From Chrysochromulina tobinii (Eukaryota): a stretch of 40,134 nucleotides of DNA. A program made the translations under genes and the position numbers. The notes beneath the pieces were generated by a model, which ran no database searches, was not told where the DNA came from, and saw only the letters and a program-made list of their open reading frames with translations. Position 1 is the stretch's first letter. Each line of letters opens with the position of its first letter. Shown here one piece after another: positions 12,836-38,943 of this stretch. The DNA lies in assembly GCA_001275005.1 (NCBI GenBank), contig JWZX01003149.1:1-40134 (forward strand), given 5' to 3'.

Positions 12836-13908
12836 GTCGTGGGCGAGTTTTGCGAGGCGTTCACCGCGAGAAGAAGGAAACGAAACCACACGCGAAACGA
12901 CAACCGATCCATAACCGATCCATTTTGGGGAAACCAGAAATAGGCACAGCACCCCGTACAGTACTGGTCAAGGACCGCATCCGACATCGTAACGTAAGCC
13001 GTTGGGCGCGATCCTCGAACACGTTCTGGCATCTGTGGAACTGTGGGGCTGGGCGGGTCACTCTGGGCGCCCAGAACTTTTCTGACTCCTGCCCCCCCTT
13101 GAATGTTCTTGAATGTGTGGCGGCTTGGGCCTTGGCCCATTTTGGGCTTAGCGCCCCTTCGGGGCCACCCGAAACCCGCCGGTCCGACCCATTGACCGTG
13201 GGGACGGACCGGACAACCGAACCATTTCCATCGACGTTTCGCCGTACGTGTATCGAATCGTGGACACGGTCACGGACTTGAACGGTTAAGGGTTATCGAT
13301 AAATCGCGAATTCCGATCGTCACCGCCGGCCGCGCTGGCGCTGCGGCCGGCGGCGCGCGCGAACGTACCACGCTATTTTTATTTCCTGCACGCGGCCGTC
13401 GCCGAACATAATCCATTATTATAGCGTGCACACCGCGGACCGGCGCGCGGCGGTCGCCGCGCTAAGCGTCACGGTGCCTCGTCCGCGCCGGCTTCGCCGC
13501 CTCGGCATCCGCCGGCTCCACGGGTCCGACCGGACGTCGAACACATCAGACGCTCTCATATCACCGCAGACCGCACAGACTCTGCACTCAAGTCCGGTCC
13601 ATGTACCATGACCATGTTGCTCTCGAAGCAGACGGCTCAGCACTCACGCACAACCAACATCCAACCGCAGCGCCGCTCCGGGCCGTTGCTCCGGGCCGTG
13701 CCGGGGCGCCGAACATGTGGGCGATGAGCCCGCTCATCATCGACCGAATGAGATGCATGCCACATGTCATGAGTAGAAACGTACAGAGAACGCAGGCATG
13801 CAAACAGAACCGCCGACATGCTTCGCCCTTCCCTTGACCCGAGTGCTTTCCCTCCACAAGCGGACGAGGCTCCGATGGGCTCGTCCAACGCATCGGTCGC
13901 ATGCCTTG

Positions 13909-16900
13909 CTAAAGCTCTAAGCGCAGTTGAGGCTTTGAAGCCGCGGCGGTGCGGATGGCCGCCTTGCACTCCTCGTCGAGCGCTGGGTTGTACTGCAGGC
14001 GCAGCGCGGACAGCGTCTTTGAGGTGTCGACCACCTTCGCCAGCCAGTGCGCCTCGGCCGTCTCCAGGTCGGTGGCGGTGAGGTCGACCTCGGTGACCGT
14101 CTTGTTATGCTTGAGCAAACCCAGGAGCAACCGCACCGACCCAGGCTCTAGGGGAGTCTCCTTTAAGCTGAGCACCTTCTCCCCCTCGAGCACCTCGAAG
14201 GCGTCGCAGCGCATGTAGCCCAAGCGGCACATGGCGCCTTCCTGCAGCAGCGAGTCGCCCAGCGACTGATAGAGGTTGGCAAAGCCCGGGATCTGGCGTA
14301 CGTCGAGCGACGTGACGGACGTGTTGCCCTTGAAGGCCTGTAACAGCGGGAAGCCATCGATCTTGGTGCAGCTCAGGTCGAGCGATGTGATCGTGCACGT
14401 TTGGCTCATCAAAAGCTCCTGCAGCGCCAACGCGCCTTCCCGACCAAAGTCGGCAGAAGCGAGGTGCAACGACGTGACGAGCGAGTAGAGCGTGCCACCG
14501 CTGGCGCGCATGCGCTTGAGGAGCTCCTTACAGCTCTTCTCGCTCATCTCGACCTCGTTGAGATAGAGGCCGAGCGCGGCGAGCTTGCAGAAGGCGGCTT
14601 GCGCCTTGAACTCCTTGGGGCACAAGGAGAGAATGCTCTGCTCCTCGCCCGCGCAGACGACGATGAGGCGCAGCGAAAGCAGCTCCTCGAAGATGAGGGG
14701 ATTGGCCACGAGGACATGCAGGTCCGACTCCTTCTCAACGTCGACGATGCCCATGAGCGCGCGCATCTCGATGGCCTGCTTGAGCATGTCTGACGAGGCG
14801 AGATAGTCGAGCTCGAAGCACTTAATGATGATCTCGCGCGGCGGCTTCTTGGCCGTCGCCTCGTCCATCAGCAGCTCCTTGAGCTTCGTAAGGGAGAGGA
14901 CGAGCGGCACGAGGCGTACAGGGCCAAGGTCGGGGGAGCCGTCGCGCAGCTTGGCCGCTACAATATACGTCATCTGCTGGAGCAAGAGCTCGTGCTCCGC
15001 CTTGCCACCGCTCAGGACGAACGCGGGCGCGGGCAAGTGCGTCGGGCCTCCGCTCTGGTCGATGGTGTCGTCGACAAGCTTATGCGCCGACATGACCTTC
15101 GGCTTTTGAGTGTCTGGCTGGGCCTTTTTGGCGGCCGGCGGCAAAGCCACCGGCGGTGGCGTGCCGGGTCGCTCCTTTGAGGTACGGTTGTCTTTTGGCG
15201 GCGGGGCCGGCGGCGGGGCCGGAAGAGCACCGGCGGGGCCGGCGATCGGCTCGCCCACGCCGGGCACATGAATCGTATCAAGGAAGATGCGCTGCTCGCG
15301 CACAGGCAGGTCCCTGCCCAACGCCTCGTCGCGCATGGTCGCGCGCTGGAGCACGAGCTTGTCGAGGTACGCGTTGCGCGCGTCCTCGTACCGCGATGCA
15401 GTGGGGAAGAGAAGCTTCGTGTGGTTCACCTCGTTGAGATCGACCTCCTTGATGACTCGCTTACCGGTGGACCCACGGTTGCCCAGGCGCACGCGGTGGC
15501 GAGAGCCGCGGCGCACGCCCATCCATTCCTCAACGACCGCGTCGAGCATAGCATTCTCGTGCATCAGCAGCAGCTTCTGGCCAGACTTGTACGAGGCCGA
15601 CGCCGTCCTGGACACCGTATCAGGCCGCGGGTCGACCGAGAGTTCAACGCCCTCCTTGGTCTCATTGTCGACCTTGACGGCAACGGTGTCGTCAGGTCGG
15701 ATCTTGACGACGGTCACAAAGTTGTTGCCCGTCTTCATGCGCGCGCCCACGCCACACGCGTACGCGAGCCACGGGCTGACCAGGATCGTGAGGACCTGCT
15801 TGGCCTGGCCGGTCGGCTGCCAGCGCATGTGGATGGTGACTATGGGTGCCGCCGTGCCAGGCAGCGGCGGCTCGGCCGTGCGCCATGGGAACCAGCGATT
15901 GTGGAGCAGCACGCGCTCCAGCCACGGCTCACCGTGCTTCTGGCTAGGCCGGAGATTGCCTACAACCTGCAAGTTGAACGCGGAGACGAGCTCGACATCA
16001 CCGCCGTCGGGCAGCGAGCTCGGGTCTGAACCGCCGTCGACGACGGTAAAGGGGACGCCCGAGCAGTTGAAGAGCAGGATCATCCCGCCGGGAGGTGCCC
16101 AGTCGTGCCGGGACGGTGCGTTCTCCTCGCGCCCCTCGGGTCGAATGCGCTGGGTGACGCTCTCCTCATCCTCAATGACCCGCCCGGCAAACTCGCGATC
16201 CGGGTCGAGCACCGCCTCGAGATCACGCCCTTTACCGAAACCGAAGAAGCGGCGGATGGCGCCGACGCCCTGGCGTGCCTGCTCGATCGAGGGCTTCTCG
16301 AGCGGGTTGCGTCCAACGGAGAGCTGCAACGCCTCGTTGAGCTCGCAGATGGTCACCGGAAGCTCCTGGAGCCTGTTCTCGGACAAATCGAGCTTGTTGA
16401 GCGCGCGCAGGTTGCCGATGGTCGCGGGGAGCACCTTGATCGAGTTCTTGTGCAGGTCGAGCGCCTCGAGCGCGGTGAGCAGGAACATGGACGCGGGCAA
16501 CTCGATGATTTGATTCGAGTGAAGGGAGATCTTACGCAGCGACGTCATCGTGCCGATGAGCGACGGGATGCCCGTGAGCCGATTCCTATCGAGCGCGAGG
16601 GAGCGGACGTTGCGAAGCTTGCACAGCGGCGCGAGGGCGTCCGGTGGGCAGTCGATGTCATCCTCATCCATTCGCAGGTCGACGATCGCATTCAGGTTGC
16701 TGCAAATGGACATCGCGAGCTCCTCCATCGCCTTGGCGTCGCCGCCGAGCCCGTTGCGGGCCACGTCGAGCAGGCGCAGGGGTGCCTCCCCAAGGCCGCT
16801 GACGATGGCTGCGATGCCGCTCGCGCCGAGCTGGTTGTTCTTCACATTGAGCTCCTGCATCGTGCGGTTCTCACGCGCGATCGCGCCAATCGCGTGCCCC

Positions 16901-19900
16901 GAGAGCGGCCCGAGTCCCCAGTCGGCCACGTTGAGTGCCGTGTCGGTGCCTGTGGCACCGCGGAGCACGGGCACGGGCAGCCGCGCCCCGTCAATCTTGA
17001 TCGATTCGAGGCACGGATGCATGCGCGCGGCCCCCGCGATCAGCGCCACGCCCTCGGCGCCGATCGGATTGTTCGAGATGTCGAGCTGCTTGAGCGTCTT
17101 GTTATCCTGGAGCGCGAGCTGGAAGAAGGCGGCGGCCGCGTTGTCGAGGCCCGTCTCGGTGACGATGACGTCCTCGAGCGACGTGTTGAACCGGAGCACG
17201 CCCGCCAGGAGCATGAGCACCGGGTTCGACACTCCTACCGAGTCGGCCACATGATCAGGCTCCTTGATCTTGACGGAGCTGCCGCGTGCAGCCGCCGCCG
17301 CTGCGGCGGCCGCCGCCTCGATGGACGCCTTGCGATCCTTGGCCGACTGGAGCTTGAGCTCCTTTTGGCCGGCAGAGACCTGAAAGGCGTCGCACGCGAG
17401 GAAGCCGAGGCGGCAGTTGCACTGCTCCATCTGCAAAAACGAGCCGAGGAAGGAGTAGATTGCATCTGTGTTCGCCGACGGGATGTCGCGGATGTCCACC
17501 GAAGTGAGCGACTCGTTGCGCTTGATCGCGAGGGCGGTGTCGTACCCATCGAGGCCCACATTGCCGCGCAGGTCCAGGAACTTGAGGGGGCAGGGCGCCT
17601 TCTCCCCCCAGAGTACCTCTTTGAGCATCGCGCCTGTCTGCTTGCCAAGATCGTTATTGGCCAGCAGGAGAGACGTGATCTTCTCGTAGCCCATCGTCTT
17701 CTTGGACAGACCGGACGAGAAGGAGGAGAGCAACTTGGCGCCGGCCTTGTCGTTGAGCTGGATGTTGGTCAGATTGATCTCGCGCAGCGGGCACACCGCG
17801 GACTCGCAGAGCGGCTTGAGTAGAATGTGGCCGCCCTCGCCCTCGGCGCCGATGGCGTTTCCGAGGCCCGTGTTCGACAGGTTGAGGCACTCGAGCATCG
17901 TGTTGGCGGCGATGAGCGTGCCGATCATCTCGCACGCCACGCGACCGAGCTGGCCTTCGATGCAAGTCTGCGACAAGTCGACCACCCGACCGCCGTCGGC
18001 CGCGGCCTCGGCGATGGCCTCGGCTTCGGCCTTCTCAGCCGCGACCTTCTCGGCCGCGGCGCCCTTGCTCCCGGTCGCCGGGGCCTTGGTGGCCTTGGTC
18101 ACCTCCGGGGGTTTCTCCGCCGTGGGCGTACCCGTCCACTTGGAGCCGTTGAGCTCTGGCACGGGCAGCCTCACCACGGCCTGGCCACCGGTGCGCGAGA
18201 TATGGATGAGGTCGAGGCGCGAGAGCGTCGAGTTGCCACGGAGCGCGAGCGCGAGCGTCGGGATCTGGTCCGAGCGCAGCTGCTTGAGCGTCACGTGCGT
18301 GAGCGTGCGGTTGCCGAGCAGGCAGCCGGCGAGCAGTCGGAACGGCTCAACCTCCTTGAGCTCCGCACGGGAGAGGTCGAACTCGCAAGCAGTCACTTTC
18401 GGCTCCAGCCCGAAGTCGTTGCAGAAGGCGACGCGCGAGCCAGGGTTGTTCAGCAGCGCCTCGCCGATGGCCGATCGCGCCGAGTTGGCCAGCGACGCGC
18501 CGCTGCCGATGTTGAAGGTGGTGAGCACGGTGTTGGTCATCATCACACCCGCGAGCAGCACTGCATCGGATGTGGACGCATCCTTGGGCCAGGTGAGAGA
18601 CGTCGTCGTCTCGGAGAGCACAAAGGTATCGCAGCTCAAGTAGCCGAGCTTGCGGGCCTTGTTCTCGAGGCACGCGCGCCCGATGTCGTCCTTGGCGCGC
18701 GAGGGCAGATGCCGATCGAGGTGCTCGCGGAGGTCAATCGAGACGAGCGACGGGTGCACACGTACAAGCTCGGCAAGGGCGGGCTCGACGCCCGGCTCAT
18801 TGTACGCGAAGCCGAGCTTCGTCAGGGCGACACAGGAGCGCAGTGCCCTGGCGGCGATTCGCACGCCAACCTGGCCGAGCTTGTTTTCGTTCAGGTTGAG
18901 GTCCGTGAGCGTGACGTTCGTCGCGAACGAGTCGCACACACGAGACCAGTCGGCGGGGATGGCGGTGAGCCGATCGAGGCCGTTGTCGCTCAGGTCGAGC
19001 GCCTTGAGGCTCTTGCACGTATTGATCATCTTGGAGAGCCCCGGCACGTCGTCCATCGTGATCTCGTTGTGCGACACGGTAATGGACTCGACCATGTTGT
19101 TGTCGTCGGTGATAAACCACAGGGCCGAGCGGCCGTTGGGCGAGAGCGGGTGCGCGTGGAAGTCCCAGTTGAGCCGTTGCATGCCGAGCAGAGAACCGAG
19201 GTGGCCCGCGGCGATGCGGCAAGTGTTGTTCATGTACCGGTTATTGAGGAACTCGGAGGCCGCCTTGTCGTTCGACCAGCCGCCCCAGCCGGGGCCCTGC
19301 GGCGGTGCGAGGCTCGTCACCAGCAGGATGAGATGCTCCGCGTATAACCCCTCCTGGAAGGAGAGGTGCTTGAACTGGTACTGCGCGGGCGCCTTGTCCG
19401 ACTGCATCGCGAGCGTCGCCGTAAGCGCGACGCCATAGTCACGGTCCATATCGAGGCGCGTCCACAAGCCGAGCTCCTCGGGCGTCGCGCCGAGCGCGCA
19501 GGCCACGTGCTTCGAGGTGAACTCGCGCCGCCCGTTCTCCTGGTTCTCGACGGCGACACGCCGGAGCATCTTCTTGGCGGTCTCTTGCAGCTGCGTCTCG
19601 CTCTGGCTGTTGGGCGCGATGACGAACTCGACGAGCGCCGTCACGGGCAGGTGCATCGAGTGCGACTTGGGCACGACCGCCGTGATGGACGTACGCAGAT
19701 CCGAGCCCTTGCCGCCCGCGTACTTGTCGAGGACGCGCACGACGAGCGAGTAGCACTCTGCCACGTCATCCTCTCCCTGCACGACGCGAACCTTCTTGCC
19801 ACGGAGCACCGAGTTGAGATCGAGCACCGGATCGTTGCTCACCGTCGTCTTCTTGGTGACGGCGGTGGCCTCCTGCCCGCCCGCGGCGTCGCCGCCCGCG

Positions 19901-22900
19901 GCGGAGAAGGACGAGCCCGCGCCCATCGAGACATCGAGCGCACCCTTGCGCTTCTCGCGGCGCGGGCGGGCGTCGGTCGCCTGCTCTTCCTCCTTCTCGG
20001 TCACTTCGGCGACCGCCTCATTGGCCTGCTGCGTGTAGGCGAGCCGCTTCTTGATGCCCGAGAGGATTCCGAGCTTGTACAACTGAAGCCGGTCCTGCGG
20101 CAGCTCCTCGAGGCTGATGGCGCCCGAGCCGCCCGAGCCAAGCGAGTAGCAGAGCAGCAGCAGCGAGAGAAGCACAGGCACACCGATCGCTTCGACGAGG
20201 AAGACGAGCAACGTCTCGAACTTGGTGTCAAATTGCCCCTTTGGCATGTTGACACGATTCATGAAAAAGTTGTAGTGCGCCGAGTAGCCCATCTCGACGT
20301 AGTACTTGCGCAGGTCCTTGTGCTCAGCCTCGATGACGAAGCACACGGCGACACCCTTGTGCCGGAAGAGCATCTGCAGCCTTACGTTTCGCAGGTGCGT
20401 CGGGTGCATCGTGTCTGGGTTGAAGGTGTTGTTGATCTCCTGCTTCGTGAGCGTCGCCTCGTCACCGTCGAAGTCCACCTCCACGCCCTTGGCGAGCGTC
20501 TTGACGAGATTGACGAGCTGCTCGCCCGTGGAGCACGGTAGCGTGATCGTGCCCAGATAGGTTTCAGGCGGCTTCTCGGCCGGTTCGGTCGTGGTCGGGT
20601 ACGTGTCCTCGAGCCAGACTTCGACCGGGTCGCGGTACTTCATTGCCGGCATCGCGGTGGCACTGCCCACGATGAAGTCGCCTAGCCCTTCTTGCTCCCG
20701 TTTGAGGCCGTAGTCGGCCATGCCGACAGTGTTGCACACGCAGCCGAGCAGGTGCATGGCCGCGGGTAGCAACCGCTCGAGGAGCGCAAACTTGTCGCCC
20801 TCCTTGGCGGTCGCCTGCGACCAGAGGCCAAAGGCGGGCATCGGCGCCGCCTTGGCGCCACGCCGGCCGCCCACCTGCGGCTGCTTGCGTAGCACACCGA
20901 TCTGCGCAAGCGACTCGTACACATCCTCGGGGAAGGTCCTCTTGAGATCCTTCTGCATCTGGTCGATGACCTCGTCCGTCTGTGCGCGCGTGCACGGCGT
21001 GGGCAGCGGCTTGATCTCCGAGTCGAGATAGTCGAGCAGCGTCGGGTGGTGCACCGTGCCCACCTTGCACGGCTTGATGAGCGCCTTGTTGAGCTGCTCC
21101 AAGAAGTTGGAGCGCAGCGCGCGACCTTGGACCGTCTTCGCCTCATCGAGCCAAGTCTGCAGGTCCTGCATATTGTCGAGCGCCATGCGCCGGCGCGAGA
21201 GCGGCGTGCGCGGCACTGGCTTGACAGCGGACGGATTCAGGATAGCCACGGAACCGGCGGGGCGCTTGGACTTCCCGTCGTCTTTGTCGCCCTTTTTGCC
21301 GCCCTTCTTGGCTGTCTTCGCCTTGGAATCCTCGATCTCGTCATCCAGGTCGGCCAGGTCGGCCTCCGCGGCGCCCTTTTTGCCCTTCTCGTCTCCCTTG
21401 GCCGCTTCGCCGCCGGCGCCCTCGGAAATCTCCTTCGTGTTCTTGCGATCCTTGGCGCCCTCCTCCTCCTTCCCCTCCGCAGACTTCTCCTCCTTCTCAT
21501 CCCCAAGCTTCTCGACTTCATTCCGGAGCGCCTCCGATCGGAAGAGCTCGCGGTACTTGTCGTCGAGGTACTTGCGGCACTCGCCGATGTTGACCAGGTG
21601 CTCGAAGAAGAGGTTGCCCTGCAGCTGCATCTGGATCACGTTACGCTGCTGCTCCTGCGAGAGCTCGAGGAGGTTCATGATCACGAAGCGCGCCTTGTAG
21701 TCGTCAAGGTCGACGCCCTCTGGACGCGAGGTGATCACGACGCGGCAGCCGCTCGTGACGAGCTCGTAGTGAACGAACGCCTCGACGACCTCACGCAGGC
21801 CGGCGGCCTCGTCCACGCCGTCGACGAGGATGACGCAAGCGCGCATCTCATACGCGAGCAGCAGCAGCGACTTCTCCTCCTTCCTGTCGATGAACTCGTT
21901 GCCAATGTACCAGCGCAGGAGGCCCTCGGGGTCCTGGAGCAGGGAGGTCGGGTCATCGCCATGTTCGCGCAACAGACGCACGATGCGCTGCACGAAGACG
22001 ATCACGGGCACCAGCCGGATGCCTTCGCCCGCGTTCTCGCCTGCGAGTGCGTCGGCGAGCAAGAAGAGACACTGCTTGACCATCCACGTCTTACCGGTGC
22101 CCGGTCCGGCGCGGCAGAGCACAGGCTGCGCGATGTGGGAGCCGTGGGGCCGGCGTGGCGAAGGCTCGAGGAAGTTGGTCACGAGCTGGGGCACATCGTG
22201 CACGCTCATGTACTCGGGCGTGTTGCACCCGTCTAAGATGTTGGCCGCGGTCATAAAGATGAGCTGCTCGGCGATGAGCAGCTGATTGCCAGTGATCGCA
22301 TCCTCGACCTTATCCTCGGTCGTCGTGAGCCACTTGCAATAACGCATCCGCAGCTCCTCGTACACATCGGCGTTCATCGCCGGGTCTACGAGGACCGCGT
22401 GGTTGAATTGGTTGAGCGAGGGGCACGACTGGCACCCCGTGGTTGCGCCGATCGGCTTGACGTTGACCATGTGGCGCGGCCCTTCCGAAGCGTCAAGGGC
22501 CCCGAACCAACGGAGCACCGTCGCATCGACGAGCATCTGCTTCTTGTCCTGCTCGTGCAGTAGCAAGAGCCGCGTGTCTCGGGTGTAGCCTGCGTACGCG
22601 CACGGCAGGATGGTGGACGGCTGAATGTCGACCAGCTGCTCGCCCTTCACGCCATCAACCTTCGAGTAGCCGTCGACGCGGCAGACGACGCGATCGTCGG
22701 CCAGGATGCGCTGCACCGTCGCGCAGCCAAATATCTCCTTGCCCTTGCGCACGAGCATACGCGCGCCGATGGAGCAGCCGTACGCGAGCCAAGGATACAC
22801 TTTGACGGTGGCGACCTCTCGACCCCATGTGAGCTCGAGTTCAATCGCGCCCGAGCCCTGCCAGCCATCGTGCATCAGACCGTGCTCCTCCGCGAGCATC

Positions 22901-25900: not shown

Positions 25901-28900
25901 ATGGCCGCCGACGCGCGCGCGCAGATTGAGGGTCGTGCTGCCCGCCTCGGCCGACGCGCTGAGCAGCCCCGTCTCGAAGTCCTTCCCGATCTCGTTGCCG
26001 AGGCGCAGCGTGTTGCCCCACCACGGCGACCAGCACCATGGCTTTGCCGCCTCGGGAGGCAGCTTCATCCCATTGCAGATCGCCTGCGCGGCGAAGTACT
26101 CCTGGAACGACAGGTGCGACGACTGCATCTCGATGGGCATCATCGAGAGCAGGCTGAGCAGCGGCAGCCGGTCTTGACGCACGCGCTCGCACATGCTGTT
26201 GATCTCGTCCTGACGCGGCGCGGGCAGGTTGCGGCACGCGAGCGCCACCGCCTCGGCGCGCTCGTCACCGAACGCGGTTCGCAGCTGAATGGCTTTGAGC
26301 TCCTCCGGGTTGGCGAGGCCGAGCGCGGCCGTCTGCAGGTCGCCCAGCCGGATGATGCGCCGCTCGGCCGCGTGCGTCTGGAAAAAGGCGGCCTCGAGTA
26401 GCTTACGCAGCTGCGGGATGGGCACCATCGACTTGCTCTGCTGCTTGTCCGCGCGCTCCTTGCGCTCGAGACGGTCGAGCATCGTCGTCGAGGCGACGCG
26501 GTAGAGCTCGACAACGGAACGAGGCATCTCCACGTCCACCTCGTCCAACAAATCTTCCTTCGAGACGCCAGACTTCTTCTTCGGGTCCTTGGCGATCGTG
26601 GTGGACACGTCCAGAAGCGCTGCCTCGGCCGCGGCCGCTTGACGCAACTCAAAGATCGAGATGACCATCGAGAGCACGAGCGGGTTGCCCGTCACGCGGT
26701 CGCCCGTGTCCGCATCGATCGGCACCTTGGTGTTAATGTACCTCATGAGCGTGGCCGCGCGCTTCTGACCAGTCTTGTCACCAACGGCGCGGATCAGACG
26801 GCGCTCGACCACCTCGGTCTGCTGCCCCGGCGTAAGGGGGCGCAGCTCGAGGTGGTGGTAACCCTTGGTCGAGAAGAGCTCTTTGGAGACACCGTTGGGT
26901 CGCGAGGTCACGATGAGCACGTGGCCCTGCGGCGCGAGCACCTCAGCGACGTGGCGCTCGATCGCGTCGCGAGCGCGGCCCGCCTCGTCGATGCCGTCGA
27001 GCAGCAGCACCGCACGCCGCGCCGTGAGCGCCTGGCGCAGGAACCGGTAGATCTCCGAGTGCATGCCGTGCAACGCGCTCAGGTACGCATCGACCCAATT
27101 CCACGCGCGCGCAAAGCCCTCCTCGTCGGCCAGCAGCCGCTTCTGCAGGTCCTGGACCCGGACGAGCACGGGCACCAGGTCCGTGTGGGACGGCTTCCAA
27201 TCGGGTCCCTCAACCGCCCCAGTGCTGCGGAGCACTACGTGCATAACGAGCTGCGACATCAGGCACGACTTGCCGGCGGCAGGCCCCGCAGTCACAAGCA
27301 CGCACACGGGCGCATCGACATCGGAGCCGTCGAGCCGCTTGGCATGCTCGGTGTGCAGCCACTCGCACAGCGCCTTGACATTATCCACTGCCAGGTGGGC
27401 GCCTGAGGTGTCGCTCGCATCCGCAGGCTTGAGCTCGATGGGCACGCAGTGGCCGAGAGAGTCAAGCCGATGGCCGGAGAGGGCGTCGACGATTGATGCG
27501 TGGTGCGAGCGCATCGAGCGGCAGTGGCGCTTCCACAACAAGTGGAAGGAGCTCTGCGGCAGCTCACGCGGTGCGTGGTTGAAGGGGGTCAGGCTCAGAT
27601 TGAACTCGGCGCCGTTGGATTCGGCGCGAAGCCGGTGGACGCTCGGCTGTTCGGCATCCAGGCAGGTGACCACCTCGGCGTCGACCCACGCGTCGCCGTC
27701 GAGCCACTGCTCGCCGCCCACCTTGACGACCAGCTGCTGCCCGGGCGCATACCGGCGCAGCCCGACCACCCCGAGCTCCAGCAGGCTGTCAAAATAGAAT
27801 TTCTCAAGCCTGTCCCACACCGATGGGGCGGCGCCGTCGTCGGACGCAGCGGCGCCGCCGGCGGCCACGCTCTTGAACGAGCGGCTCTTCCTGAAGCTCG
27901 CGCCCGGCGTACCCTCATCGTCCTCGAGGGCGCCCAGACGCGAATTGACGCTCTTCGTTTTGGGAGTACTCTTGGCGCTCTGCTTCGCATTGGGTTGCGT
28001 GGGGGACGCCGAGATCAACGCCTCCTTCATCGCGATGGCGCTTGAAATGGAAAGGTCGAGGACGGCGCTCTGCCCAGCCTCGAGATTCTGCACCTCGATG
28101 TACAGGCTGCGCCCCGACTCGAGAGTCACCATCTCCTGCACCGTGAGTGCGAGCGCCTTCTCGAGCACCTTGAGATGGTTCTTGAGCGTAAGGTCCTTAA
28201 GCTCAAGGTAGCGCCACGCATCAGAACCGGGTTCGGCTTTGGCGGCCGCCAGACGCGCCTCGTCCTCCCGCGCGCCGAGCTGCCCCTTTGCGTCGAAGAG
28301 CTCGGCGCGCTCCGCGTCCAGCAGACGAAGCTCGTCGGTGGTGCCTTCGAGCACACCCTTGCGGTCGCCCGAGGGGCGGTTGGCAAAGGTGCCTGAGCCC
28401 TCCTTGAGAGTCGCGCTCGTGGGGGGCTCCGCGGCCCTCGCCGTGAGCAGCTCCAGCTCGTCGGCCATCGCGACGGTGCGCTGCCCCAGCCGCTGGAGCA
28501 GCTCCTCGGTCAACGCCCTGGGCGGCATCGAGTAGACTCGAGAGGGCAGCTCCTCGATCAGGCCCATCAACACGAGCCCGCTCGAAATCGCGATGAGCGC
28601 CGACGTGTAGTTCGAGGCGAGCAGCTGGATCTCCTTCTTTTTCTTCTCCTCGAACGCCTCGAAGCTACTTGAGCCTTGCTTGAAGGACTGCTTGAATGAC
28701 TCCTCGTTTCCGCCGGGGGTCGAGTCATCGTCCTCCATGGTGCGGCTCTCTACCTTCTGTTGCGCCTCGATAAGGGCACGCTGCCGCTCCTCGAGGTCGG
28801 CCTTGGATGCGCCGAGCTGCTCCTTCGCCGCCTCCACCTCGGCCACCTTGCAAGCCGTGAGCTCCTTGGCCACCTCGAGCCGCTGCTGCTTGAGCTCTGC

Positions 28901-31900
28901 CTGGCGTGTGGCTAGGGCCGGGTGTGCGATCACAATCGTGTGGTACGAATCCTCAACCTCAGCGCCCATGAGCTTCAGCTGCACACCCGCCACAATGATG
29001 CTCTGACACGCTCGGCGCGCGCGCATCATTTGGTCGATGACCATCGTCGAAGAGGGCGTGAGGCCCTCCAACTCGATCTGTAACGACTGCAACACCCCAA
29101 ACTCGACCGTCTTCCGTCGACCGCCGGCCGGGCCGTGGCTTGGAGAGACTCGCTGCGCGAGCTTGCGCATTGACGTGATCGTCAACACGTCGCAACGCAC
29201 GGCGTCGCAGAGCGCCGCATACGCCATGCTGGTGGGCTTGCGCCAGGGCAGGGCCACTTGGTTGCAGTCGTCGAATGCCACCAGCCGACGCACGGGCCCC
29301 TCCTCCTGCTCCTCGCGCTCCTCCTCGCGGCTGCTCGGGATCAGATGCTCCGCGGCGCAGTGCTCGCGCAACTCTCGGGAATCGCTCTCGGTCACGCCTG
29401 ACACGGCGAGGACGGAGCGTGCGACAGAGTAGGGCGTGATCACTGAGAATCGCGAGAGGCCGTTGCCGCCCTCGAGCCGGCTCTCAATCTCGGGGACCAT
29501 GAGCAGCAGCTGGCCGGGCGCGAGCTGCAGTGAGCTCGCGGCCGCTTGAACCTTGCCGATGGGCGAGGGCACGGGCGGGAACGGGAGCGCCGCGCTGAGC
29601 GCGAGGCTGCACTTGCATGCGAGGTGCATCGCGACGCGCTTCTGGCCGCTCGACAAGCGCGGACCGTGCAGGTGGCCGAGCGCCGTGCTGAGCAGGGGCA
29701 GCAGCAAGTTCACCGCATGCAGGTCAGCGTCGAGGCACGGTCGCTCACCCGGCAGGCCGCTCGAGCGCTGCTGCTCGAGCTGCGAGCACTGCGCCACCAC
29801 GTCGCACGAGCGCTCGATGGCCAGAGTCGCCAGCTGCAGCGCGAGCTTCGGACGTGACTCCATCCCTGCGGGCGTCTCCACGATCGCCATCTGCCAGAGC
29901 TGCGGCGGATCGCCCTCGCGCACGGCGAAGAGCGTGTCGATGACGGCACACACTTCGGCCTCCCGCTTACGAGCGACCTCGACGTCCACGAGCTGGGCCA
30001 CCGCCGCTCGGAGCGTCTCACGTGCCTGGATGTCGCGCTTCGACTGGTGCTCGGCGGTATGGTACTGCCGGGGCGGTGGCTCGAGAGCACGTGCCGCGAG
30101 CATGGCGACATCCTCGCAGCCGTCGGCCATCGTGATGATGTCGAGCGCCGTCTTCTCCGGGACGCCGAGCATGCTGCCCAGCTTGGCCGCGAGCGCTGTC
30201 GCGGGTAGCGCCGACCTTTGTATCTCGGCGAGCGAGATTGGGATCGGGTAGTGCTCGACGAGGATCGAGCCGAGCAGGCGCGCCGTGTCGGCGAACGCGG
30301 GCCCCGGATTGGAGGCCGCGAGGTCGGCCAGCCACACGTTGTCCTGCGCATCCACCAGGACTTGCGCCGGCCGCAAGTCGCCGTGCTGCTGGGTGTAGAG
30401 AGGCTGCCACTCCGCAAGCCACGCGACGGGCTCGCCCCCCCATCCCGAGCTGCTCTGCAGCAGCCGCACCGCGCTCAAGATCGGCTCGAGGGTCACCTCA
30501 TCGAATCGCTCTGCCGAACCCAACGAATCTCTCGTGGGTCGCCTCGTCGAGCCATGCTCGTGCTTCGAACGATGATCGTGCTCGAGGTTCACAGGCTCGA
30601 GTACGATCGAGTGCTCGAACTGGTGGCGCTCGAGAAGCTTCATCTGATCCTCATCCTCGAGCTCATCGAGCTCGGGCATTTCTTCGAGCAATTTCAAGAG
30701 CTCCATGGGCGGCTTGTAGTCCACCTTCTTGACCAGAGCGGCGTGCGCGGCCGACGGGCTGAAGGCGATGCACAGGCTCTCGAGCAGCTGCGCGAGCGTC
30801 GTGCTGATCATCCCCTCCGACGCCGTCGCCACGTGCTCAGCACGACGCGCCGTCTTGAGCGCGAGCCCGCTCAGCGGCCCTCCATGCCCCCAGAGCTCGT
30901 TCAAGACGGTGACGGGCGAGCACGAGACAAACGAGGACTCTGAGCGTGACTGGCCACTCAGATCCAGCAGCAGCAGGCCGCGCAACGTGGTGAGGAGCTC
31001 GACCTTGCCCAGCTTGCCATAGAAATCCGGCGTCACCCAGCAGGCTCCCGTCATCTCAAGCACCATGCCGCCGAAGTCCGCGTCGCCGGCGATGGGCGCC
31101 GCCGGCGCTGCCGCCGGCGTCGCGACCACGAGCTTCGAGAACGAGCCTTCGCCTGCCGAGATCGCGGGCGGGGCCTCGCGCTCAGCACCGTTGAAGGCGA
31201 CGTAGAGCGGCCCGCGCACCGCCCGAACGGTGTCGGCACCAAGGAGCGAGGTGACCTCAGTGAGGCGTTCCGCCTCGTGCATGATAGCTGGGGCCGCACT
31301 GAGTCGAAGCACCGTGGGCTCATTGGCGGTGCCGTCAGCGTCGGCCGAATCCACGAGAAGCGAGAGGGCGCCGGAGGGCTCCTTTTCGAGCACCTTGCAG
31401 ATGATGAGCGACGAGCCCACGTACAGGCGCGCGATCAGGCGAACGTACGCGACCTTGCGCACCGAAGGCGCGCCGAGATCACCGCGCAGCTGCAGCACTG
31501 TCTCGATGAAGGCAGGCGGGATGCGCCCATCCTTATCTCCAGGGCACACAATCGTTCCGTTGCCGAGCTCGTAGAACTCGAGCCCAGCTCGAATGGCTCT
31601 GTGCACGTTGACCCACACGTACGCCGTGCAGTCGGCGCGCATGCCAGAGACGATGTTCGCCTCGCCTCGAATCCCCTTGCCAAAGTGGACGAAGTTGCGA
31701 CTCATGGTGGAGAGCCCCCGCTTGAGGATGCCACTCTCGCCCTCGAGGACCTCGAGATACGTGCCGTGCAGAGCATACTCGACCGCGGCCAACGTCGAGT
31801 AACCGTCGGCCGGCTCGTCGACTACCAGCCGCACGCCGGGCTTCATGAGCGATGGGATCGTGGTGATCGTGTGTCCTTCATAGGCGCGGATCCGAGGGAT

Positions 31901-33271
31901 GGGCGTGGTGTAGCTGAGCTCGAAGCGGCACACCTCGCCAGTGTTGACGAGCTCTTTGAGGTGGTCCTCGGTGTACTTTAGGCGCTCGCCCACGGGCCCC
32001 TGCAGCGATTCCCAGCGCCCGTCATCGGCGACCCCCGGCCCATGGTTGACGTACTCGAGCGCAGCCTTGATCGTCACCCATCCATCCTTTTCCATCTGGA
32101 CGCCGACGCGCACCGCGTGGTGGCGCAGCAAGTTGGACAGAAGCTTCGAGAGACGGACAAGTGGCTTCGGGGGCTCGGACGTGGCCGTCGGCTCGACGCT
32201 GTCACCGACCAGGTAGAGCTTCGCGCGCTGCCAGCTGCGCTTGGCCTTCAGCGCAGCGAGCTGCTGACGCTTCTTGAACGACCTCTCGGGCGACTTCTCG
32301 AGGTCCCTGGTACGCTGGCGCGCCAGTGCACGGGCCGCTTTCTCGTTGGCCGCCCTCTCAGCTGCCCTCTCAGCGGCCGCTGTCGCCTCGGCCGTCTTGG
32401 CCGCCTCGGCGGCTGCAGTCTCCTCGGCAATCTCATCGGCAATCGGCGCAGCGGCGGCAGCGGCGGCGGCGGCGGCCTCCGCCGCCGCCTGTTCCTCAGC
32501 CTCAATCTGTGCCACGAGCGCCGCGGCCTGCGCCTGCGCCTCCACCTTTTGCGCCTCCCAAGCGGTCTCCTGCTCGGCCGCATCCGCCTCCTGCTCGGCC
32601 GCATCCGCCTCCTGCTCGGCCGCATCCGCCTCCTGCTCGGCCGCATCGGCCGTCGCGCGGGCCGCGTCCTCCTCGGCCATCTCCGAGGCGGCGGCGGCGG
32701 CGGCAATATCGAGCTCCATTTCGGAGGCAGCTTCTGTGGGCTGCGGCGAGAGCTGGGAGGCAGGCTCTGAGTCCAGCCTGGCAGAGACGGGTCGCAGCAG
32801 GTTCTGTGGATCCATACGGGGAGAGCCTAGCACCACGAGGGGACCGAGGACAGATTCGCTCGCTGCCCTGCCCCGTTCCGACTGTAGATCGTCCTCCTTT
32901 GCTGCCTCGTGATCGCGTGTGTACAGCAGCCGCGTCTGTTGGCGCGACATCGCCCCACGCTGGCGTGCCTGGATGACGGCAGCCGCGCGGTCCACATCGA
33001 GCTTCGGGATGACGACGCCGCCGACGGTATCGGCGGCGTCGGTGGGTGGGTCACGAGCGGTGACTGCGCGGCTGCTGCTGCTGCAATTGCTGCGGGCGCT
33101 CGTAGGCTCCTTGATGAACTCCGGGTCCGCCTCCGTGATGGGCTCCGGGTCCGCCTCGTGCGGCCGCGAAAAGAGCAACTGCGTCCGCTTCCGAGTCATG
33201 GCGCCACGGCCGCGTGCTTGTATGACCGTGGCGCACCGCTCCAGCTCCAAGGGCGGAACCTCAGGTGGCAT
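13909..33271 (-). CDS. Giant (~6,360 aa) multi-NACHT NLR-like protein: IQ x2 - Tpt1/KptA - kinase-like - NACHT1 - LRR - SH3-like x2 - NACHT2 - LRR - degenerate NACHT3 - LRR; exons 33271-25546 and 25265-13909
   Basis: The 2579-aa and 3797-aa ORFs join in frame (ATG ATC CTA G|GG GTC TTG = MILGVL) on removing GT..AG intron 25545-25266. NACHT1: TAGPAAGKS, VLLLDGIDE, IVTSRP, GNPLVL, HLSFQEYFAA. NACHT2: RAGPGTGKT, VILVDGVDE, VITSRP, GVPVLL, FKHLSFQEGL. Many RNI-like LRRs plus a block of typical LRRs (~16240-16630). Confidence 0.85.
23340..23760 (-). other. Two tandem SH3-like (SH3b-type) domains within the giant gene
   Basis: LVARKDENPASPTVGQKIGVGCLMRVLEEK..LGWVT and INCRDGPDNTSKKLDDIPKDALVRVLEEK..IGWIQ follow the lnvR.gP...s..i..l..G..v.vl....GWv pattern. 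Confidence 0.6.
25266..25545 (-). repeat. Spliceosomal intron composed of exactly four tandem 70-bp units
   Basis: Minus-strand unit GT(G/T)AGTGCTACTGATGACCACTGATGACCTCTGATGACCTCTCTCATTGCGGCCTGCCCCATGATCCTAG repeated 4 times (280 bp, few substitutions). Its last ~25 nt copy the end of the upstream exon (25546-25570). Confidence 0.9.
29640..31450 (-). other. Protein-kinase-like (APH/choline-kinase-type) domain, probably catalytically degenerate
   Basis: HGDLRPAQVLVDAQDNVWLADL matches HGDLxxxN...(W)xxDF, but with N->Q and DF->DL. The beta3 Lys appears replaced (EPTVLRL) and the Gly-loop is eroded. Boundaries are approximate. Confidence 0.6.
31500..32160 (-). other. Tpt1/KptA RNA 2'-phosphotransferase (PTS_2-RNA) domain within the giant NLR-like gene
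   Basis: LSKLLSNLLRHH..MEKDGWVTI, CRFE, RIRAYEGHT, LHGT, ILKRGLSTMSRNFVHF, SGMR, FYELGNGTIVCPG..GRIPPAF. The Arg-His-Arg-Arg catalytic tetrad appears intact. Confidence 0.9.
32567..32647 (-). repeat. 21-bp coding tandem repeat (~3.9 copies) encoding EQEADAA
   Basis: CTCCTGCTCGGCCGCATCCGC repeated on the + strand, in frame in the Ala/Glu-rich N-terminal region of the giant protein. Confidence 0.9.
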
Positions 33272-33627
33272 GGACCAAGGTGGACCGGTCCACTGGTGCG
33301 CCCCGTACCTACCGCCTTTGCGAGGAAGGCCTTCGCTTTGGGAGCAAGAAGTTGGGATGATTGCGTTTCATCGAGCTCCACTTCCTACATGTGAAAAAGG
33401 CTCCTAGATGTCCTTTAATTACTGTCAAATTTGCGAACGTCAGCCTCATGGGTCCTTCTCAGCGCAGAAATGGGCTGGACGCTGGAGGGGCATCTCAACC
33501 CGGCAGACATGCGGGCGTATCAATCCCAAGAATGACAACCGGAACGAAGCGAACTGCTTGCTTGCGTATATTCTTCCGTCGGGAGTCAGAGGTGCTGGCC
33601 AATTTATGAGGACCGCGTTTTCCCTAA
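33272..33627. promoter_or_regulatory. Short divergent (putative bidirectional) promoter between the giant NLR-like gene and the SAMHD1-like gene
   Basis: 356 bp of lower-GC sequence between two oppositely oriented ATGs (33271 on -, 33628 on +). Function inferred from geometry only. Confidence 0.55.
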
Positions 33628-35514
33628 ATGAAACGTTTTGCCCCTGTTGAAAAAGACTCCTCATCTGTGACCCTCTTGCCGCAAGCGCACGCGCCAGCCG
33701 ATATGTCATCCACATTGCCGACACCCCTCGTCTGCCGCAAACGCGCACGCCAGCCCGCGGGCTCGCCTACGGACGAGGTGCCACTTGAACGGATCCCGAC
33801 CGCATCCATGATCGAAATGAATCGGACCAAGAATATTGCCGACCGAGTGCACAGGGTAATCAAGATTGAGCCACTACTCCAGGCAGTCATCGACACCGCT
33901 CAGTTCCAGCGACTACGCGAGCTCAAGCAGCTTGGCAATGCAACACACGTGTGGCCGACAGCCACGCACAGCCGTTTCGAGCACTCGCTCGGCGTGGCGC
34001 ACCTTGCGGGGCGGGTGTGCGAGACCATCCTGGAGCAGGCACAGCGGGGCGAACTGCCTGATGATATCGAGCCGCCAAGCGACCGCGATGTACTGTGCGT
34101 CAGACTGGCCGGCCTCGTGCACGACCTCGGCCACGGCCCCTTCAGCCACGTGTTTGATGGCCACGTTGTCCCCGGTGCCAGGAAGCTGGCGGTGTGCACG
34201 TGCAAGAAGGAGCCAAGTACGTGCGTCAAGTGCGCCCTTGAAAGGCACTCGCACGAAAAGATGTCCATCCGGATGCTCGCGCACATGGTCGAGCAAAACC
34301 CGCACCTGCGTGGGCACTATGGGCTGCAGCTTGGGCCGGGAGAACCCGATTTCCGTTTCGTCGAGGAGCTCGTGCTCGGCGACGAGCTCGAGGGAGGCGT
34401 CGCGAGCCGGCGTGGCGTGCCGCTCGCGTCCAAGGGCTATCTGTACGAGATCGTGAACAACACCGAGAGCGGCCTCGACGTCGACAAGCTCGACTATCTG
34501 CTTCGCGACCCGCAGGCGTGCAACGACCACAAGCCGTCCTTTTACATCGACACGCTGCTCGAGGGGCTCAAAGTCTGCTGGGGCAAGTTTCCTGGCGTGC
34601 GCGCGCGCCGGCCTGTGATCGCGTACGCCTCCAAGGTCGCCTCGGAAGTGCACAAGGTGTTCCGTACGCGCTTCGACTTCCACAACGAGTACTACACGCA
34701 CAAGACGGTGCAAGGGCGCGACCTCGTGCTGACCGACCTGCTGCTCGCGTGCGATGAGGTTGGCGAGCCATTGAATGCTAACGGCCAGTCGTACCGCATC
34801 GGTGAGGCGGTGCGCGTGCTCGAAGTGTACGAGAAGCTCAACGACCATGTCGTCACCATGGTCGAGCAGTGGCTGTGCGTACAGGAGGACCAACTCGCCG
34901 ACGCCGAGCGGCCCGACTCGAAAATCGACGAGACTGAACGCGCCCGTTACCTGAAACTGGGCCCTCGCATCCGACGAATCCGCAAGCTACTTCGCTTCTG
35001 GAGCGCGCACGGACACTACAAGTGCCTGCACCAGCGGCTGTGCACCGATGAAGAGCTGAAGCTTCCGAAGGGCGCGCTGCGCGAGCGGCTGGCTGAGGAG
35101 CAGAGCCGTCTGAGAGTGCAAACGCGCGAGCCCTCGCTGCATGTTGAGCCGCTGCACTTGCACTACGGTCATCCAAGTGACAAGGGGCGCTACCCACTCA
35201 ACGAAATTTGCTTCTTCGACAAGAGCGACAGCAAGGACAACGAGGTGCAGCCTGGCCCGCCCACACACCTCGGGCGCTCTCGTACCAACGGCTCTTTTGA
35301 GGATAAGTATGTGCGCTACTACGCGCGTGACGTGGACCTGTGCCAGGACAAGGTGCGGCTGTGCCGGCTGCAGCAAATGGTTAAGCAGCAGCTTGACAAG
35401 GGCAAGGCCCCGTGTGGGCACGCGAGCCCGTGCGGGGGCAGCGGCAGTGACGACCGCCCCGACCAGACCGACGAGACGCAGCCCGGGGGCACCGGTATCG
35501 TCGACGCTGAATGA
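33628..35514 (+). CDS. SAMHD1: SAMHD1-like HD-domain dNTP triphosphohydrolase (no SAM domain)
   Basis: IDTAQFQRLRELKQLG (allosteric-site motif), HSRFEHSLGV, LVHDLGHGPFSHVFD, HEKMS, YEIVNN..LDVDKLDYLLRD, RFDFHNEYYTHK: the His-His-Asp-Asp metal ligands are all present. N-terminal RKRAR..SP resembles an NLS. Start is 33628 or 33703. Confidence 0.92.
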   Translation: MKRFAPVEKDSSSVTLLPQAHAPADMSSTLPTPLVCRKRARQPAGSPTDEVPLERIPTASMIEMNRTKNIADRVHRVIKIEPLLQAVIDTAQFQRLRELKQLGNATHVWPTATHSRFEHSLGVAHLAGRVCETILEQAQRGELPDDIEPPSDRDVLCVRLAGLVHDLGHGPFSHVFDGHVVPGARKLAVCTCKKEPSTCVKCALERHSHEKMSIRMLAHMVEQNPHLRGHYGLQLGPGEPDFRFVEELVLGDELEGGVASRRGVPLASKGYLYEIVNNTESGLDVDKLDYLLRDPQACNDHKPSFYIDTLLEGLKVCWGKFPGVRARRPVIAYASKVASEVHKVFRTRFDFHNEYYTHKTVQGRDLVLTDLLLACDEVGEPLNANGQSYRIGEAVRVLEVYEKLNDHVVTMVEQWLCVQEDQLADAERPDSKIDETERARYLKLGPRIRRIRKLLRFWSAHGHYKCLHQRLCTDEELKLPKGALRERLAEEQSRLRVQTREPSLHVEPLHLHYGHPSDKGRYPLNEICFFDKSDSKDNEVQPGPPTHLGRSRTNGSFEDKYVRYYARDVDLCQDKVRLCRLQQMVKQQLDKGKAPCGHASPCGGSGSDDRPDQTDETQPGGTGIVDAE

Positions 35515-35747
35515 CGGGTCTCAGATTCAATTTTCCTTGACGGTCAGTATGTGTTTTGAACACCGCGTGGTTCATTATCATAACTGTCCTGTCCCGAGCA
35601 TGCGCGCAATGCGACTCAGGAGCGCTCAACTTGACGCCTTTTCGATTTCGTTTGCTCTCGCGTGAACGCGGTCATAACGCGCGGATCCTGGACACGCAAG
35701 TCGCGCCGCGAGTCCCTACGTCCTCCTGCCTCTTCGGCCGCGGGGTA

Positions 35748-36762: not shown

Positions 36763-37055
36763 ATGGTCAGAAACGAGCATCGCAAAGCCTCACTTCCTGT
36801 GTGAGGACTCACGCCGAGCGTCGGTGCAAGTCGTGGGCTCGCGGCGATTCGACCCCCCCGACCGCCGACGTACAATCTTCTGTCAGCTGTACCGGTACGT
36901 ACTTCCTCCCCGGCGAGTCAGACATTAGCAAGCGGTGTGTCAGGGGTAGGTGCACTGATAGGTCACCCGACGTGCAACGCTAGGTTAGGCGGCCGATCGG
37001 GGCCCATTCACAGGAAAGTTACCGGTACAGTACAGTACGGTCCGTGCATCATGCG

Positions 37056-38387: not shown

Positions 38388-38943
38388 AATTTATTTGAAC
38401 GCACCTCCGCTCCCCGGCCGCGGCCCCGGCGCCCGGGCAGACGGCTTCGGCACCGGTACGGGAATACGGTATACAATACGACGTATACCAGCTCGGATCG
38501 TTCAGATATATGACTCAGCTCGGGGGATTTTCTTTTTTTATTTAAACGCAGTCACGCGATGGTCGTTACGGATAATGTTTGCCCACGACGGCGCTCGGGG
38601 GCCGTTGTGGGTATTTAAAAGTCTTTACAACGCCCGTTAAGTGTGGCGGGGTTGTTTTAGACCCGTAGAGGGGTCAGCCCAAAAAATCGACTTTTTGAAA
38701 CGTCACGATCTGACAGCATGCGACATACCCACGTGTAGAGCACACTCAGGGGATCACAATGCACCATGGTACACTGTCAGGGTCATCCTCTTTGAGGAAT
38801 TACATGCATGTAACATGCTAATTTTTTTAGGGCTCAGGCACATAGCAGACAGCACGTGCCTGACCGCGGCGGAGATGGCAGAGGCGGCAGCGATGGCGGC
38901 GGTGATGGCTGCGGCAGCGGTGCTATCGGCGGCGGAGGCGATG

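What the first reader, a model, noticed from the sequence alone, without database searches (positions are those of the whole stretch)
13909..35514. Candidate algal innate-immunity locus: giant KptA-effector multi-NACHT NLR head-to-head with a SAMHD1-like dNTPase
Seen: a ~6,360-aa STAND/NACHT-LRR gene and an intact SAMHD1-like gene are transcribed divergently from a 356-bp spacer. Established: NACHT-LRR proteins are intracellular sensors that activate N-terminal effectors, and SAMHD1 and bacterial dGTPases restrict viruses by depleting dNTPs; haptophytes are hosts of large dsDNA viruses. Inference: the pair may be a co-regulated antiviral module coupling sensing and an NAD-using effector to dNTP starvation. 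Caveat: short divergent spacers are common in compact algal genomes, and the IQ motifs and Lys-rich linkers would also fit a cytoskeletal or flagellar role.
Basis: partly seen in the sequence, partly recalled or inferred. Interest (0 to 1): 0.85.

Follow-up and report, generated by a model that had tools for sequence, protein, structure and literature searches.

The report
Giant triple-NLR algal protein, Tpt1 head
A haptophyte alga transcribes and splices one gene for a 6,360-residue protein with three immune-receptor-like (NACHT-LRR) units behind a Tpt1-type domain predicted to use NAD; it likely acts as a stress or defence switch, while a partnership with the neighbouring SAMHD1-like gene is possible but untested.

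Summary
Observation confirmed. Two exons joined across a 280-nt GT-AG intron give 6,360 aa; the splice appears in 3 of 3 RNA runs laid, and a Chrysochromulina parva gene model differs by one residue. Architecture: IQ motifs, Tpt1/KptA with its four catalytic residues, a TCAD9/APH-fold kinase with altered motifs, then three Tudor-NACHT-LRR units. The third NACHT is degenerate; the second carries a weakly supported RelA/SpoT-like insert. A core of about 3,300 aa is conserved at about 50% in 16 relatives. Heads vary (KptA, EF-hand, ankyrin), and stand-alone head-TCAD9-NACHT-LRR receptors also exist. The SAMHD1-like gene is intact, 356 nt away, divergent. The co-regulated antiviral pair is unproven. 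For it: one true orthologue of each gene is recorded on a contig of identical length (6,822 nt; indirect, DNA not seen). Against it: a same-species paralogue has other neighbours and the spacer is ordinary here. No infection data were available. An earlier scan note describes another haptophyte NACHT-LRR with a different head on other DNA, not this gene. Verdict: new variant of NLR-like STAND proteins; function inferred.

The parts
25546..33271 (-). Giant gene exon 1 (aa 1-2575, plus first base of codon 2576)
   Evidence: RNA contigs cover it nearly throughout and reach 33259-33330 at the 5' end
25266..25545 (-). 280-nt GT-AG intron built of 70-nt tandem repeats that include a copy of the exon end
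   Evidence: spliced junction in 3 of 3 RNA runs laid
13909..25265 (-). Giant gene exon 2 (aa 2576-6360, stop)
   Evidence: C. parva 6,360-aa model
32207..33271 (-). N-terminal region: two IQ motifs (aa 17, 100) and Ala/Glu-rich linker
   Evidence: both IQ motifs kept in orthologue P0106
31487..32161 (-). Tpt1/KptA RNA 2'-phosphotransferase (ADP-ribosyltransferase fold), aa ~371-595; R383, H384, R449, R525 present
   Evidence: Pfam PF01885 E 2e-30; alignment; model vs mouse Tpt1 Z 21.5, rmsd 2.6 over 204
29582..31483 (-). TCAD9/APH-choline-kinase-fold domain, aa ~597-1230; Gly loop, Lys and Asn motifs altered (likely pseudokinase here)
   Evidence: PF19974 E 1.5e-4, below cut-off; VIA Z 15.4, rmsd 3.7 over 266; motif columns
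26072..27844 (-). Pre-NACHT module (homologous to those of units 2 and 3) and NACHT1 with intact Walker A/B, aa ~1810-2400
24502..25924 (-). LRR block 1 (aa ~2450-2830, crosses the intron)
23242..23784 (-). SH3b-like region, aa ~3070-3250
   Evidence: PF08239 E 8.6e-4, below cut-off
22372..23109 (-). Beta-rich domain plus tandem Tudor-like barrels, aa ~3295-3540
   Evidence: model; Tudor hits Z 6-6.9; Foldseek E about 0.01
19282..22134 (-). NACHT2, intact Walker A/B, about 70% identical in relatives at its ATPase core, aa ~3620-4570
   Evidence: best structural matches NOD2, NAIP5, NLRP3, NLRP9, Z 7.8-8.5
20272..20874 (-). Insert in NACHT2 with a RelA/SpoT-synthetase-like fold, apparently degenerate, aa ~4040-4240
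   Evidence: 11 of 50 listed VIA rows are RelA/SpoT-family enzymes, Z 6.6-7.8; no sequence-level confirmation
16252..19134 (-). LRR block 2, aa ~4620-5580
13912..16164 (-). Unit 3: beta+Tudor repeat, degenerate NACHT3 (no Walker A/B), terminal LRRs
   Evidence: internal repeat E 2e-24; motif columns
33272..33627 (.). 356-nt divergent spacer, 54% GC; includes the giant's 5' UTR to at least 33330
33628..35514 (+). SAMHD1-like HD-domain dNTP triphosphohydrolase, 628 aa, no SAM domain

Best explanation
The giant gene encodes three Tudor-NACHT-LRR units in one chain behind a Tpt1/KptA domain, and it likely works as an NLR-like nucleotide switch for stress or non-self signalling, with the SAMHD1-like neighbour probably a separate dNTP-control gene. 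Shown: the gene, its splice and transcription, intact Walker motifs in NACHT1 and NACHT2, their loss in NACHT3, the four catalytic Tpt1 residues, a conserved core with variable heads, and a sister family of stand-alone head-TCAD9-NACHT-LRR proteins. Inferred from STAND biology: ligand binding at LRR, Tudor or SH3 surfaces would allow ADP/ATP exchange and oligomerisation. NACHT2, the better conserved ATPase, would be the main switch, and unit 3 and the altered kinase would be non-catalytic sensor or scaffold parts. Clustering would license the KptA head to ADP-ribosylate or dephosphorylate RNA ends using NAD+, or the head would act as an integrated sensor of damaged RNA ends. The IQ motifs would add calmodulin control. 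The trigger and any virus link are untested.
For: Structural matches of NACHT2 to NOD2, NAIP5, NLRP3, NLRP9 and NLRC4. All rows shown by the Atlas features search are bacterial; six of the ten carry NACHT as their main family. Variable heads on the same TCAD9-NACHT module: KptA, NUDIX, RRM, C2. Four such proteins (P0329, P0041, P0043, P0052) end in a C-terminal cap like the giant's, so they are stand-alone receptors. Heads on the conserved core: ankyrin, EF-hand, low-complexity, KptA-TCAD9-NACHT1. Fungal NLRs show such combinatorial heads, including RelA_SpoT and C2 (PMC4986451, passages). A NACHT gene, LRR and TIR genes are highly transcribed in virus-recovered G. huxleyi (PMC12489294, passages).
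Against: The core is strongly conserved (up to 87% in 150-aa windows) and close variants differ little (1 of 6,360; 8 of 3,793; lowest listed 93% over 264 aa), unlike fast-evolving pathogen sensors; these clusters are limited to 90% identity and selection was not tested. The gene is transcribed in mixed-culture RNA runs whose listing names no infection. NACHT structural Z-scores (7.4-8.5) lie near the tool's stated background of 7-8, and the Pfam NACHT cut-off is not reached. PADLOC gave only two weak hits for the giant (E 8.5e-4 and 6.6e-3). The contig-length match hints that the SAMHD1 neighbourhood is old, which the 'separate gene' part does not explain.
Confidence: 0.5

Rival explanations
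1. The giant is a constitutive, Ca2+/calmodulin-regulated scaffold (haptonema, flagellar apparatus, cortex or RNP lattice) built from NLR-derived units, as some NACHT proteins are structural; heads are accessory.
For: High conservation of the core and low variation among close variants. IQ motifs here, EF-hand heads in P0008/L002 and P0021, SH3b region. Transcribed and spliced in all 3 RNA runs laid. VIA lists NLRP2-containing SCMC and cytoplasmic-lattice chains among matches, which are structural NLR assemblies (recalled knowledge).
Against: The head module belongs to an expanded family with shuffled enzyme heads related to NAD/ADP-ribose (KptA, NUDIX), typical of conflict systems. Two NACHT ATPase sites and the Tpt1 active site are intact.
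Confidence: 0.25
2. One reading: giant and SAMHD1-like gene are one co-regulated antiviral module from a bidirectional promoter, coupling sensing and NAD-dependent RNA modification to dNTP starvation.
For: P0106, a clear N-terminal orthologue of the giant, and P0395, a SAMHD1 orthologue at 49% identity in the same 100%-supported clade, are both recorded on a longest contig of 6,822 nt. Chance for that row is about 0.003; among 87 giant-family rows of 4.5 kb or more, 2 matched (one is the verified L001 contig) against 0.15 expected.
Against: The match is of lengths only; DNA, order and orientation were not seen, and it was noticed after the fact. One of 3 matches among 112 rows (2,166 nt) is evidently chance. 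Paralogue L002 has Band 7 and Hsp70 genes upstream and no SAMHD1 in 8 kb. Gaps between window ORFs run 221-2,540 nt, so 356 is ordinary. SAMHD1-like genes are widespread in eukaryotes, and 36 viral loci also encode them, none with a giant-like neighbour.
Confidence: 0.15
3. The KptA head does housekeeping RNA-end repair (tRNA 2'-phosphate removal) and is tethered to a large regulatory scaffold without any defence role.
For: All four residues essential for Tpt1 activity are present (PMC6097658 passages); the fold is closest to mammalian Tpt1.
Against: Several core relatives lack the KptA head. In P0009 one catalytic Arg is replaced. Neighbouring conserved positions differ in this copy.
Confidence: 0.1

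Closest known systems
Animal NACHT-LRR NLRs (NOD2, NAIP, NLRP3, NLRC4)
   Same: Head-NACHT-LRR order; Walker A/B and sensor motifs; best structural matches of NACHT2.
   Different: Three units in one chain, the last without ATPase motifs; tandem Tudor-like barrels before the NACHTs; an enzyme-fold insert inside NACHT2; enzymatic head instead of a death fold. PMC3879445 (passages) found NACHT-LRR only in animals among the genomes it sampled; the non-animal species named there include no haptophyte.
Fungal NLRs with combinatorial effector heads (Dyrka et al. 2014, PMC4986451)
   Same: Shuffled N-terminal enzyme or binding domains on a NACHT; RelA_SpoT and C2 occur there too.
   Different: Fungal NLRs use WD, ANK or TPR, not LRR, and show positively selected repeats. 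Here the repeats are LRR, the core is conserved, and the RelA/SpoT-like part is internal.
Tpt1/KptA tRNA 2'-phosphotransferase
   Same: Fold (Z 21.5) and R-H-R-R residues.
   Different: Fused as the head of a STAND protein; no such fusion was found in paper searches.
Pfam TCAD9 / APH-like small-molecule kinases listed as effectors of bacterial ternary conflict systems (PMC7159879, PMC8195603 passages)
   Same: APH/choline-kinase fold; relatives pass the TCAD9 cut-off.
   Different: Eukaryotic, fused between KptA and NACHT, with catalytic motifs altered in this copy. The word TCAD was not found in either paper's main text, so that link rests on the Pfam name.
SAMHD1 family dNTP triphosphohydrolases
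   Same: HD motifs and flanking conserved residues.
   Different: No SAM domain; sits in a separate clade of unnamed environmental sequences; antiviral role in algae not established.

Membership tests
NACHT-LRR NLR (STAND) | P-loop Walker A and Walker B in the NACHT domain | tested here: met
   NACHT1 (G1996..K2001, D2092/D2095) and NACHT2 (K3634, D3727) intact
NACHT-LRR NLR (STAND) | Walker motifs in the third NACHT-like unit | tested here: not met
   absent in the window protein and in the core relatives aligned at that place
NACHT-LRR NLR (STAND) | NACHT fold / profile membership | tested here: inconclusive
   top structural hits are NLRs but Z 7.4-8.5; Pfam NACHT 25.2 bits vs cut-off 26.7; relative P0011 passes at 35.8
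NACHT-LRR NLR (STAND) | C-terminal LRRs after the NACHT | tested here: met
   Pfam LRR families above cut-off in exon 2; three blocks
NACHT-LRR NLR (STAND) | Ligand-triggered oligomerisation and immune output | not testable with these tools
   needs biochemistry and infection data
NACHT-LRR NLR (STAND) | Diversifying selection in sensor repeats | tested here: inconclusive
   few differences among close variants; no dN/dS, clusters limited to 90% identity
Tpt1/KptA | Arg-His-Arg-Arg catalytic set and two-lobed fold | tested here: met
Tpt1/KptA | NAD-dependent 2'-phosphotransferase or RNA ADP-ribosylation activity | not testable with these tools
   assay needed
APH/TCAD9 kinase | APH/choline-kinase fold | tested here: met
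   Z 15.4, rmsd 3.7 over 266
APH/TCAD9 kinase | Gly-rich loop, catalytic Lys, metal-binding Asn and DF motif | tested here: not met
   catalytic Asp965 kept, but loop, Lys (Arg), Asn (Gln970) and Phe altered; orthologue P0023 keeps them
RelA/SpoT synthetase | Synthetase fold and motifs | tested here: inconclusive
   structural hits Z up to 7.8, Foldseek E 0.02; no Pfam, PDB-sequence or Atlas support
SAMHD1-like dNTPase | H...HD...D metal motifs and substrate Arg/His/Tyr | tested here: met
SAMHD1-like dNTPase | dNTPase activity and virus restriction | not testable with these tools
   assay needed
Co-regulated head-to-head defence pair | Linkage conserved across species | tested here: inconclusive
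   one indirect contig-length match; paralogue unlinked; no second orthologue locus retrieved as DNA
Co-regulated head-to-head defence pair | Co-induction on infection | not testable with these tools
   runs offered were Logan contigs of mixed cultures and freshwater, none raw reads

The most novel reading that the evidence does not exclude
Haptophytes have a self-contained sensor-helper-effector NLR: three NACHT-LRR units in one polypeptide that fire an RNA-modifying, NAD-consuming Tpt1 head, kept head-to-head with a SAMHD1 dNTPase across species diverged to about 50% protein identity as a two-gene anti-giant-virus module.
Probability: 0.15. Interest if true: 0.88.

Novelty: new variant of a known kind. 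Interest (0 to 1): 0.6.

Why it matters
Antiviral mechanisms of marine and freshwater microalgae are largely unknown (PMC12489294; bioRxiv 10.64898/2026.10.11.758280). This locus exposes a family of haptophyte NACHT-LRR proteins with swappable enzyme heads (KptA, NUDIX, RRM, C2, EF-hand, ankyrin) and a conserved triple-unit giant; I found no description of it in 9 paper searches. It gives concrete, testable candidates in a cultured alga. It suggests Tpt1 recruited as an NLR effector or integrated sensor, and NACHT-LRR architecture outside animals. If the SAMHD1 link held, it would be a defined two-gene algal defence module.

Tried and rejected
No whole genome was held and the metagenome loci could not be searched as records, so synteny could not be tested on genomes. 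The metagenome scan with the WH/LRR1 alignment confirmed 4 of 515 pattern matches. L001 is the same DNA as the window. L002 is a paralogue. L003 holds only about 390 nt upstream of its apparent start, so it is uninformative. L004 (weak, 25 residues) had no hit to the giant and was dropped. Viral scans with giant-derived alignments found 0 of 42 and 0 of 374 candidates. In one search RNA contigs cover the SAMHD1-like gene only in pieces of 196-245 nt; contigs cannot rank expression, so this is not used as evidence. RNA cover of exon 2 beyond the junction was not obtained. Independent fusion of heads: an AU test rejected one clade for the giants' NACHT1 (p 0.011), but P0025 is cut at its contig end and may itself be a giant; with it included the group is a weakly supported clade (57/53), so the claim was dropped. 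The core tree leaves the three KptA-headed members ungrouped, two of them in a basal polytomy; gain versus loss of the head is undecided. The 2,166-nt length match pairs two C-terminal fragments and is treated as chance. A HET/TIR-like insert in P0009 and P0329 is recalled from motif appearance only; Pfam did not list HET for P0329 and it was not tested further. Sequence searches did not confirm the RelA/SpoT-like insert, and the Atlas gave no usable hit. Complex prediction was not used: nothing beyond adjacency suggests binding. Relatives are gene calls that can stop at introns, so short heads may be incomplete, except where one ORF runs from the other head into the core (P0002, P0003, P0008, L002).
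Full report
Gene check. The minus strand holds two long frames, 33271..25546 and 25265..13909. Joining them across a GT..AG intron of 280 nt gives 6,360 codons and one stop. The intron lies in 4.4 copies of a 70-nt repeat. Of 21 runs listed, 19 hold the stretch and 6 are RNA. I laid 3 RNA runs and 1 DNA run on 25500-36600; all 3 RNA runs show a contig that leaves at 25545 and continues with exon 2. A Chrysochromulina parva model of 6,360 aa differs at one residue, and proteins named C. tobinii fall in related clusters, so the organism is a Chrysochromulina haptophyte. The plus-strand ORF 33628..35514 is a SAMHD1-like HD protein (E 4e-54 to human SAMHD1) with metal and substrate motifs intact and no SAM domain. 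The spacer is 356 nt.

Anatomy. Residues 371-595 are Tpt1/KptA (Pfam E 2e-30; Z 21.5 to mouse Tpt1), with R383, H384, R449 and R525 at the positions shown essential in PMC6097658 (passages; alignment). Residues 597-1230 fold as an APH/choline-kinase domain (model pLDDT 82; Z 15.4); relatives pass Pfam TCAD9. In this copy the Gly loop, Lys and Asn are altered, while orthologue P0023 keeps them, so it is likely a pseudokinase. Three homologous units follow (internal repeats): Tudor-like barrels, a NACHT domain and LRRs. NACHT1 and NACHT2 keep Walker A and B; NACHT3 does not. The model of residues 3270-4460 (pLDDT 66) matches NOD2, NAIP5, NLRP3 and NLRP9 best (Z 7.8-8.5), Tudor domains at its front (Z up to 6.9), and RelA/SpoT-family synthetases for an insert (11 of 50 rows, Z 6.6-7.8). 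These Z values are near the tool's background, Foldseek gave nothing under E 0.001, and sequence searches did not confirm the insert. Its motifs look better kept in paralogues P0020 and P0021 (motif reading recalled).

Family. The exon-2 search scored 2,055 candidates and returned 22 proteins: the gene itself, 16 core relatives at 43-57%, 4 distant paralogues near 30% (one with Roc, one with EF-hands) and 1 LRR-only hit. The shared core starts near residue 3070, with a remnant of unit 1 before it in several. Heads differ: ankyrin (P0002), EF-hand (P0008, L002), low-complexity (P0003), or KptA-TCAD9-NACHT1 (this gene; P0009; P0023 with P0011, whose clusters share 5 contig lengths). A search with the head (1,804 hits at E 0.001, best 150 listed, 30 scanned by Pfam) revealed stand-alone head-TCAD9-NACHT-LRR proteins of 2.2-2.5 kaa with KptA, NUDIX or C2, four of them ending in a C-terminal cap like the giant's. 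NACHT1 groups with these, apart from NACHT2. Whether heads were gained several times or lost several times is undecided.

The pair. The metagenome scan gave 4 loci. L001 is the same DNA as the window. L002 encodes an EF-hand-headed relative 97% identical to P0349, which is 99% identical to a named C. tobinii protein, so it is a paralogue; its upstream 8 kb hold Band 7 and Hsp70 genes and no SAMHD1. The only hint for conserved linkage is indirect. P0106 starts almost like the giant and is its closest non-self head. P0395 is a SAMHD1 orthologue at 49%. Both are recorded with a longest contig of 6,822 nt. Comparing 112 giant-family lengths with 153 SAMHD1 lengths gave 3 matches against 0.6 expected: the verified L001 contig, this one, and one short chance match. 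Among the 87 of 4.5 kb or more there were 2 against 0.15. The match was noticed after the fact and the DNA was not seen; I rate same-contig at roughly 75%, and even then old adjacency is not co-function. Gaps between window ORFs are 221-2,540 nt in a species described as gene-dense (PMC4580454, passages). SAMHD1 homologues are common in eukaryotes (PMC12042053, passages) and in 36 viral loci, none with a giant-like neighbour. A preprint reports viral and host SAMHD1 co-expressed in infected dinoflagellates, function unknown (10.64898/2026.10.11.758280, abstract and passages).

Mechanism. Most likely (0.5) the giant is an NLR-like ADP/ATP switch whose activation clusters or releases the NAD-using Tpt1 head, in stress or non-self signalling; the steps after the anatomy are inferred from STAND biology. 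Support comes from combinatorial heads as in fungal NLRs, where RelA_SpoT and C2 heads also occur (PMC4986451, passages), and from high NACHT, LRR and TIR transcript levels in virus-recovered G. huxleyi (PMC12489294, passages). Against it stand the strong conservation of the core, the low variation among close variants and transcription in cultures with no infection on record, which fit a structural or Ca2+-linked scaffold (0.25). The two-gene antiviral module gets 0.15 and pure RNA repair 0.1.

Novelty. Nine paper searches (listings only unless named above) found no description of haptophyte KptA-TCAD9-NACHT-LRR proteins or of a triple-NACHT giant; most subscription papers are not in that library and no supplements were read. 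The C. tobinii genome paper has no mention of NACHT or NLR in its main text. PMC7159879, PMC8195603, PMC9503650 and PMC3879445 were seen as passages. The parts are known domains; the combination is a new variant of NLR-like STAND proteins. Interest 0.6.

Noticed in passing
window 25265-25571: The intron is a 70-nt tandem repeat containing a copy of the exon end; summed depth in DNA run X1 is about 40-fold higher in that bin, and similar repeats fill introns of L003, suggesting a genome-wide repeat-built intron type.
   Followed up: partly
window 10193-12967 (-): 924-codon Ala/Glu/Pro-rich ORF downstream of the giant with no Pfam match.
   Followed up: no
window 269-9266: GDSL lipase (269-1480 -), homeodomain gene (1955-3517 -), an ORF that reads like a glutathione S-transferase (4602-5279 +; recalled, not scanned), LRR_6 protein (6058-7536 -) and a ricin-B-type lectin-domain protein (8010-9266 +); the last two form another divergent pair.
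   Followed up: partly
window 35748-40134: FkbM methyltransferase with a GT-AG intron of 103 nt near 36330-36432 seen spliced in X15, an NHL-repeat gene (36984-38387 +) and a proline-rich F5/8-type-C-like protein cut by the window end.
   Followed up: partly
P0020, P0021 (paralogues): Distant paralogues carry a Roc GTPase or EF-hands and keep the RelA/SpoT-like insert motifs better than the window protein; candidates for an active nucleotide synthetase inside an NLR.
   Followed up: partly
P0329 (named C. tobinii protein), P0041, P0043, P0052: Stand-alone head-TCAD9-NACHT-LRR receptors with NUDIX, C2 or KptA domains; P0329 is labelled only 'Protein nlrc3' or hypothetical.
   Followed up: partly
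L005-L040: 36 viral contigs, mostly AT-rich and many named as giant-virus MAGs, encode SAMHD1-like proteins at 24-38% identity.
   Followed up: partly
P0332, P0374: Database models truncate both genes: a 2,555-aa read of exon 1 into the intron and a 417-aa C-terminal SAMHD1 piece.
   Followed up: yes
window 31760: All four runs laid read T instead of C, at a third codon position of the KptA domain.
   Followed up: no
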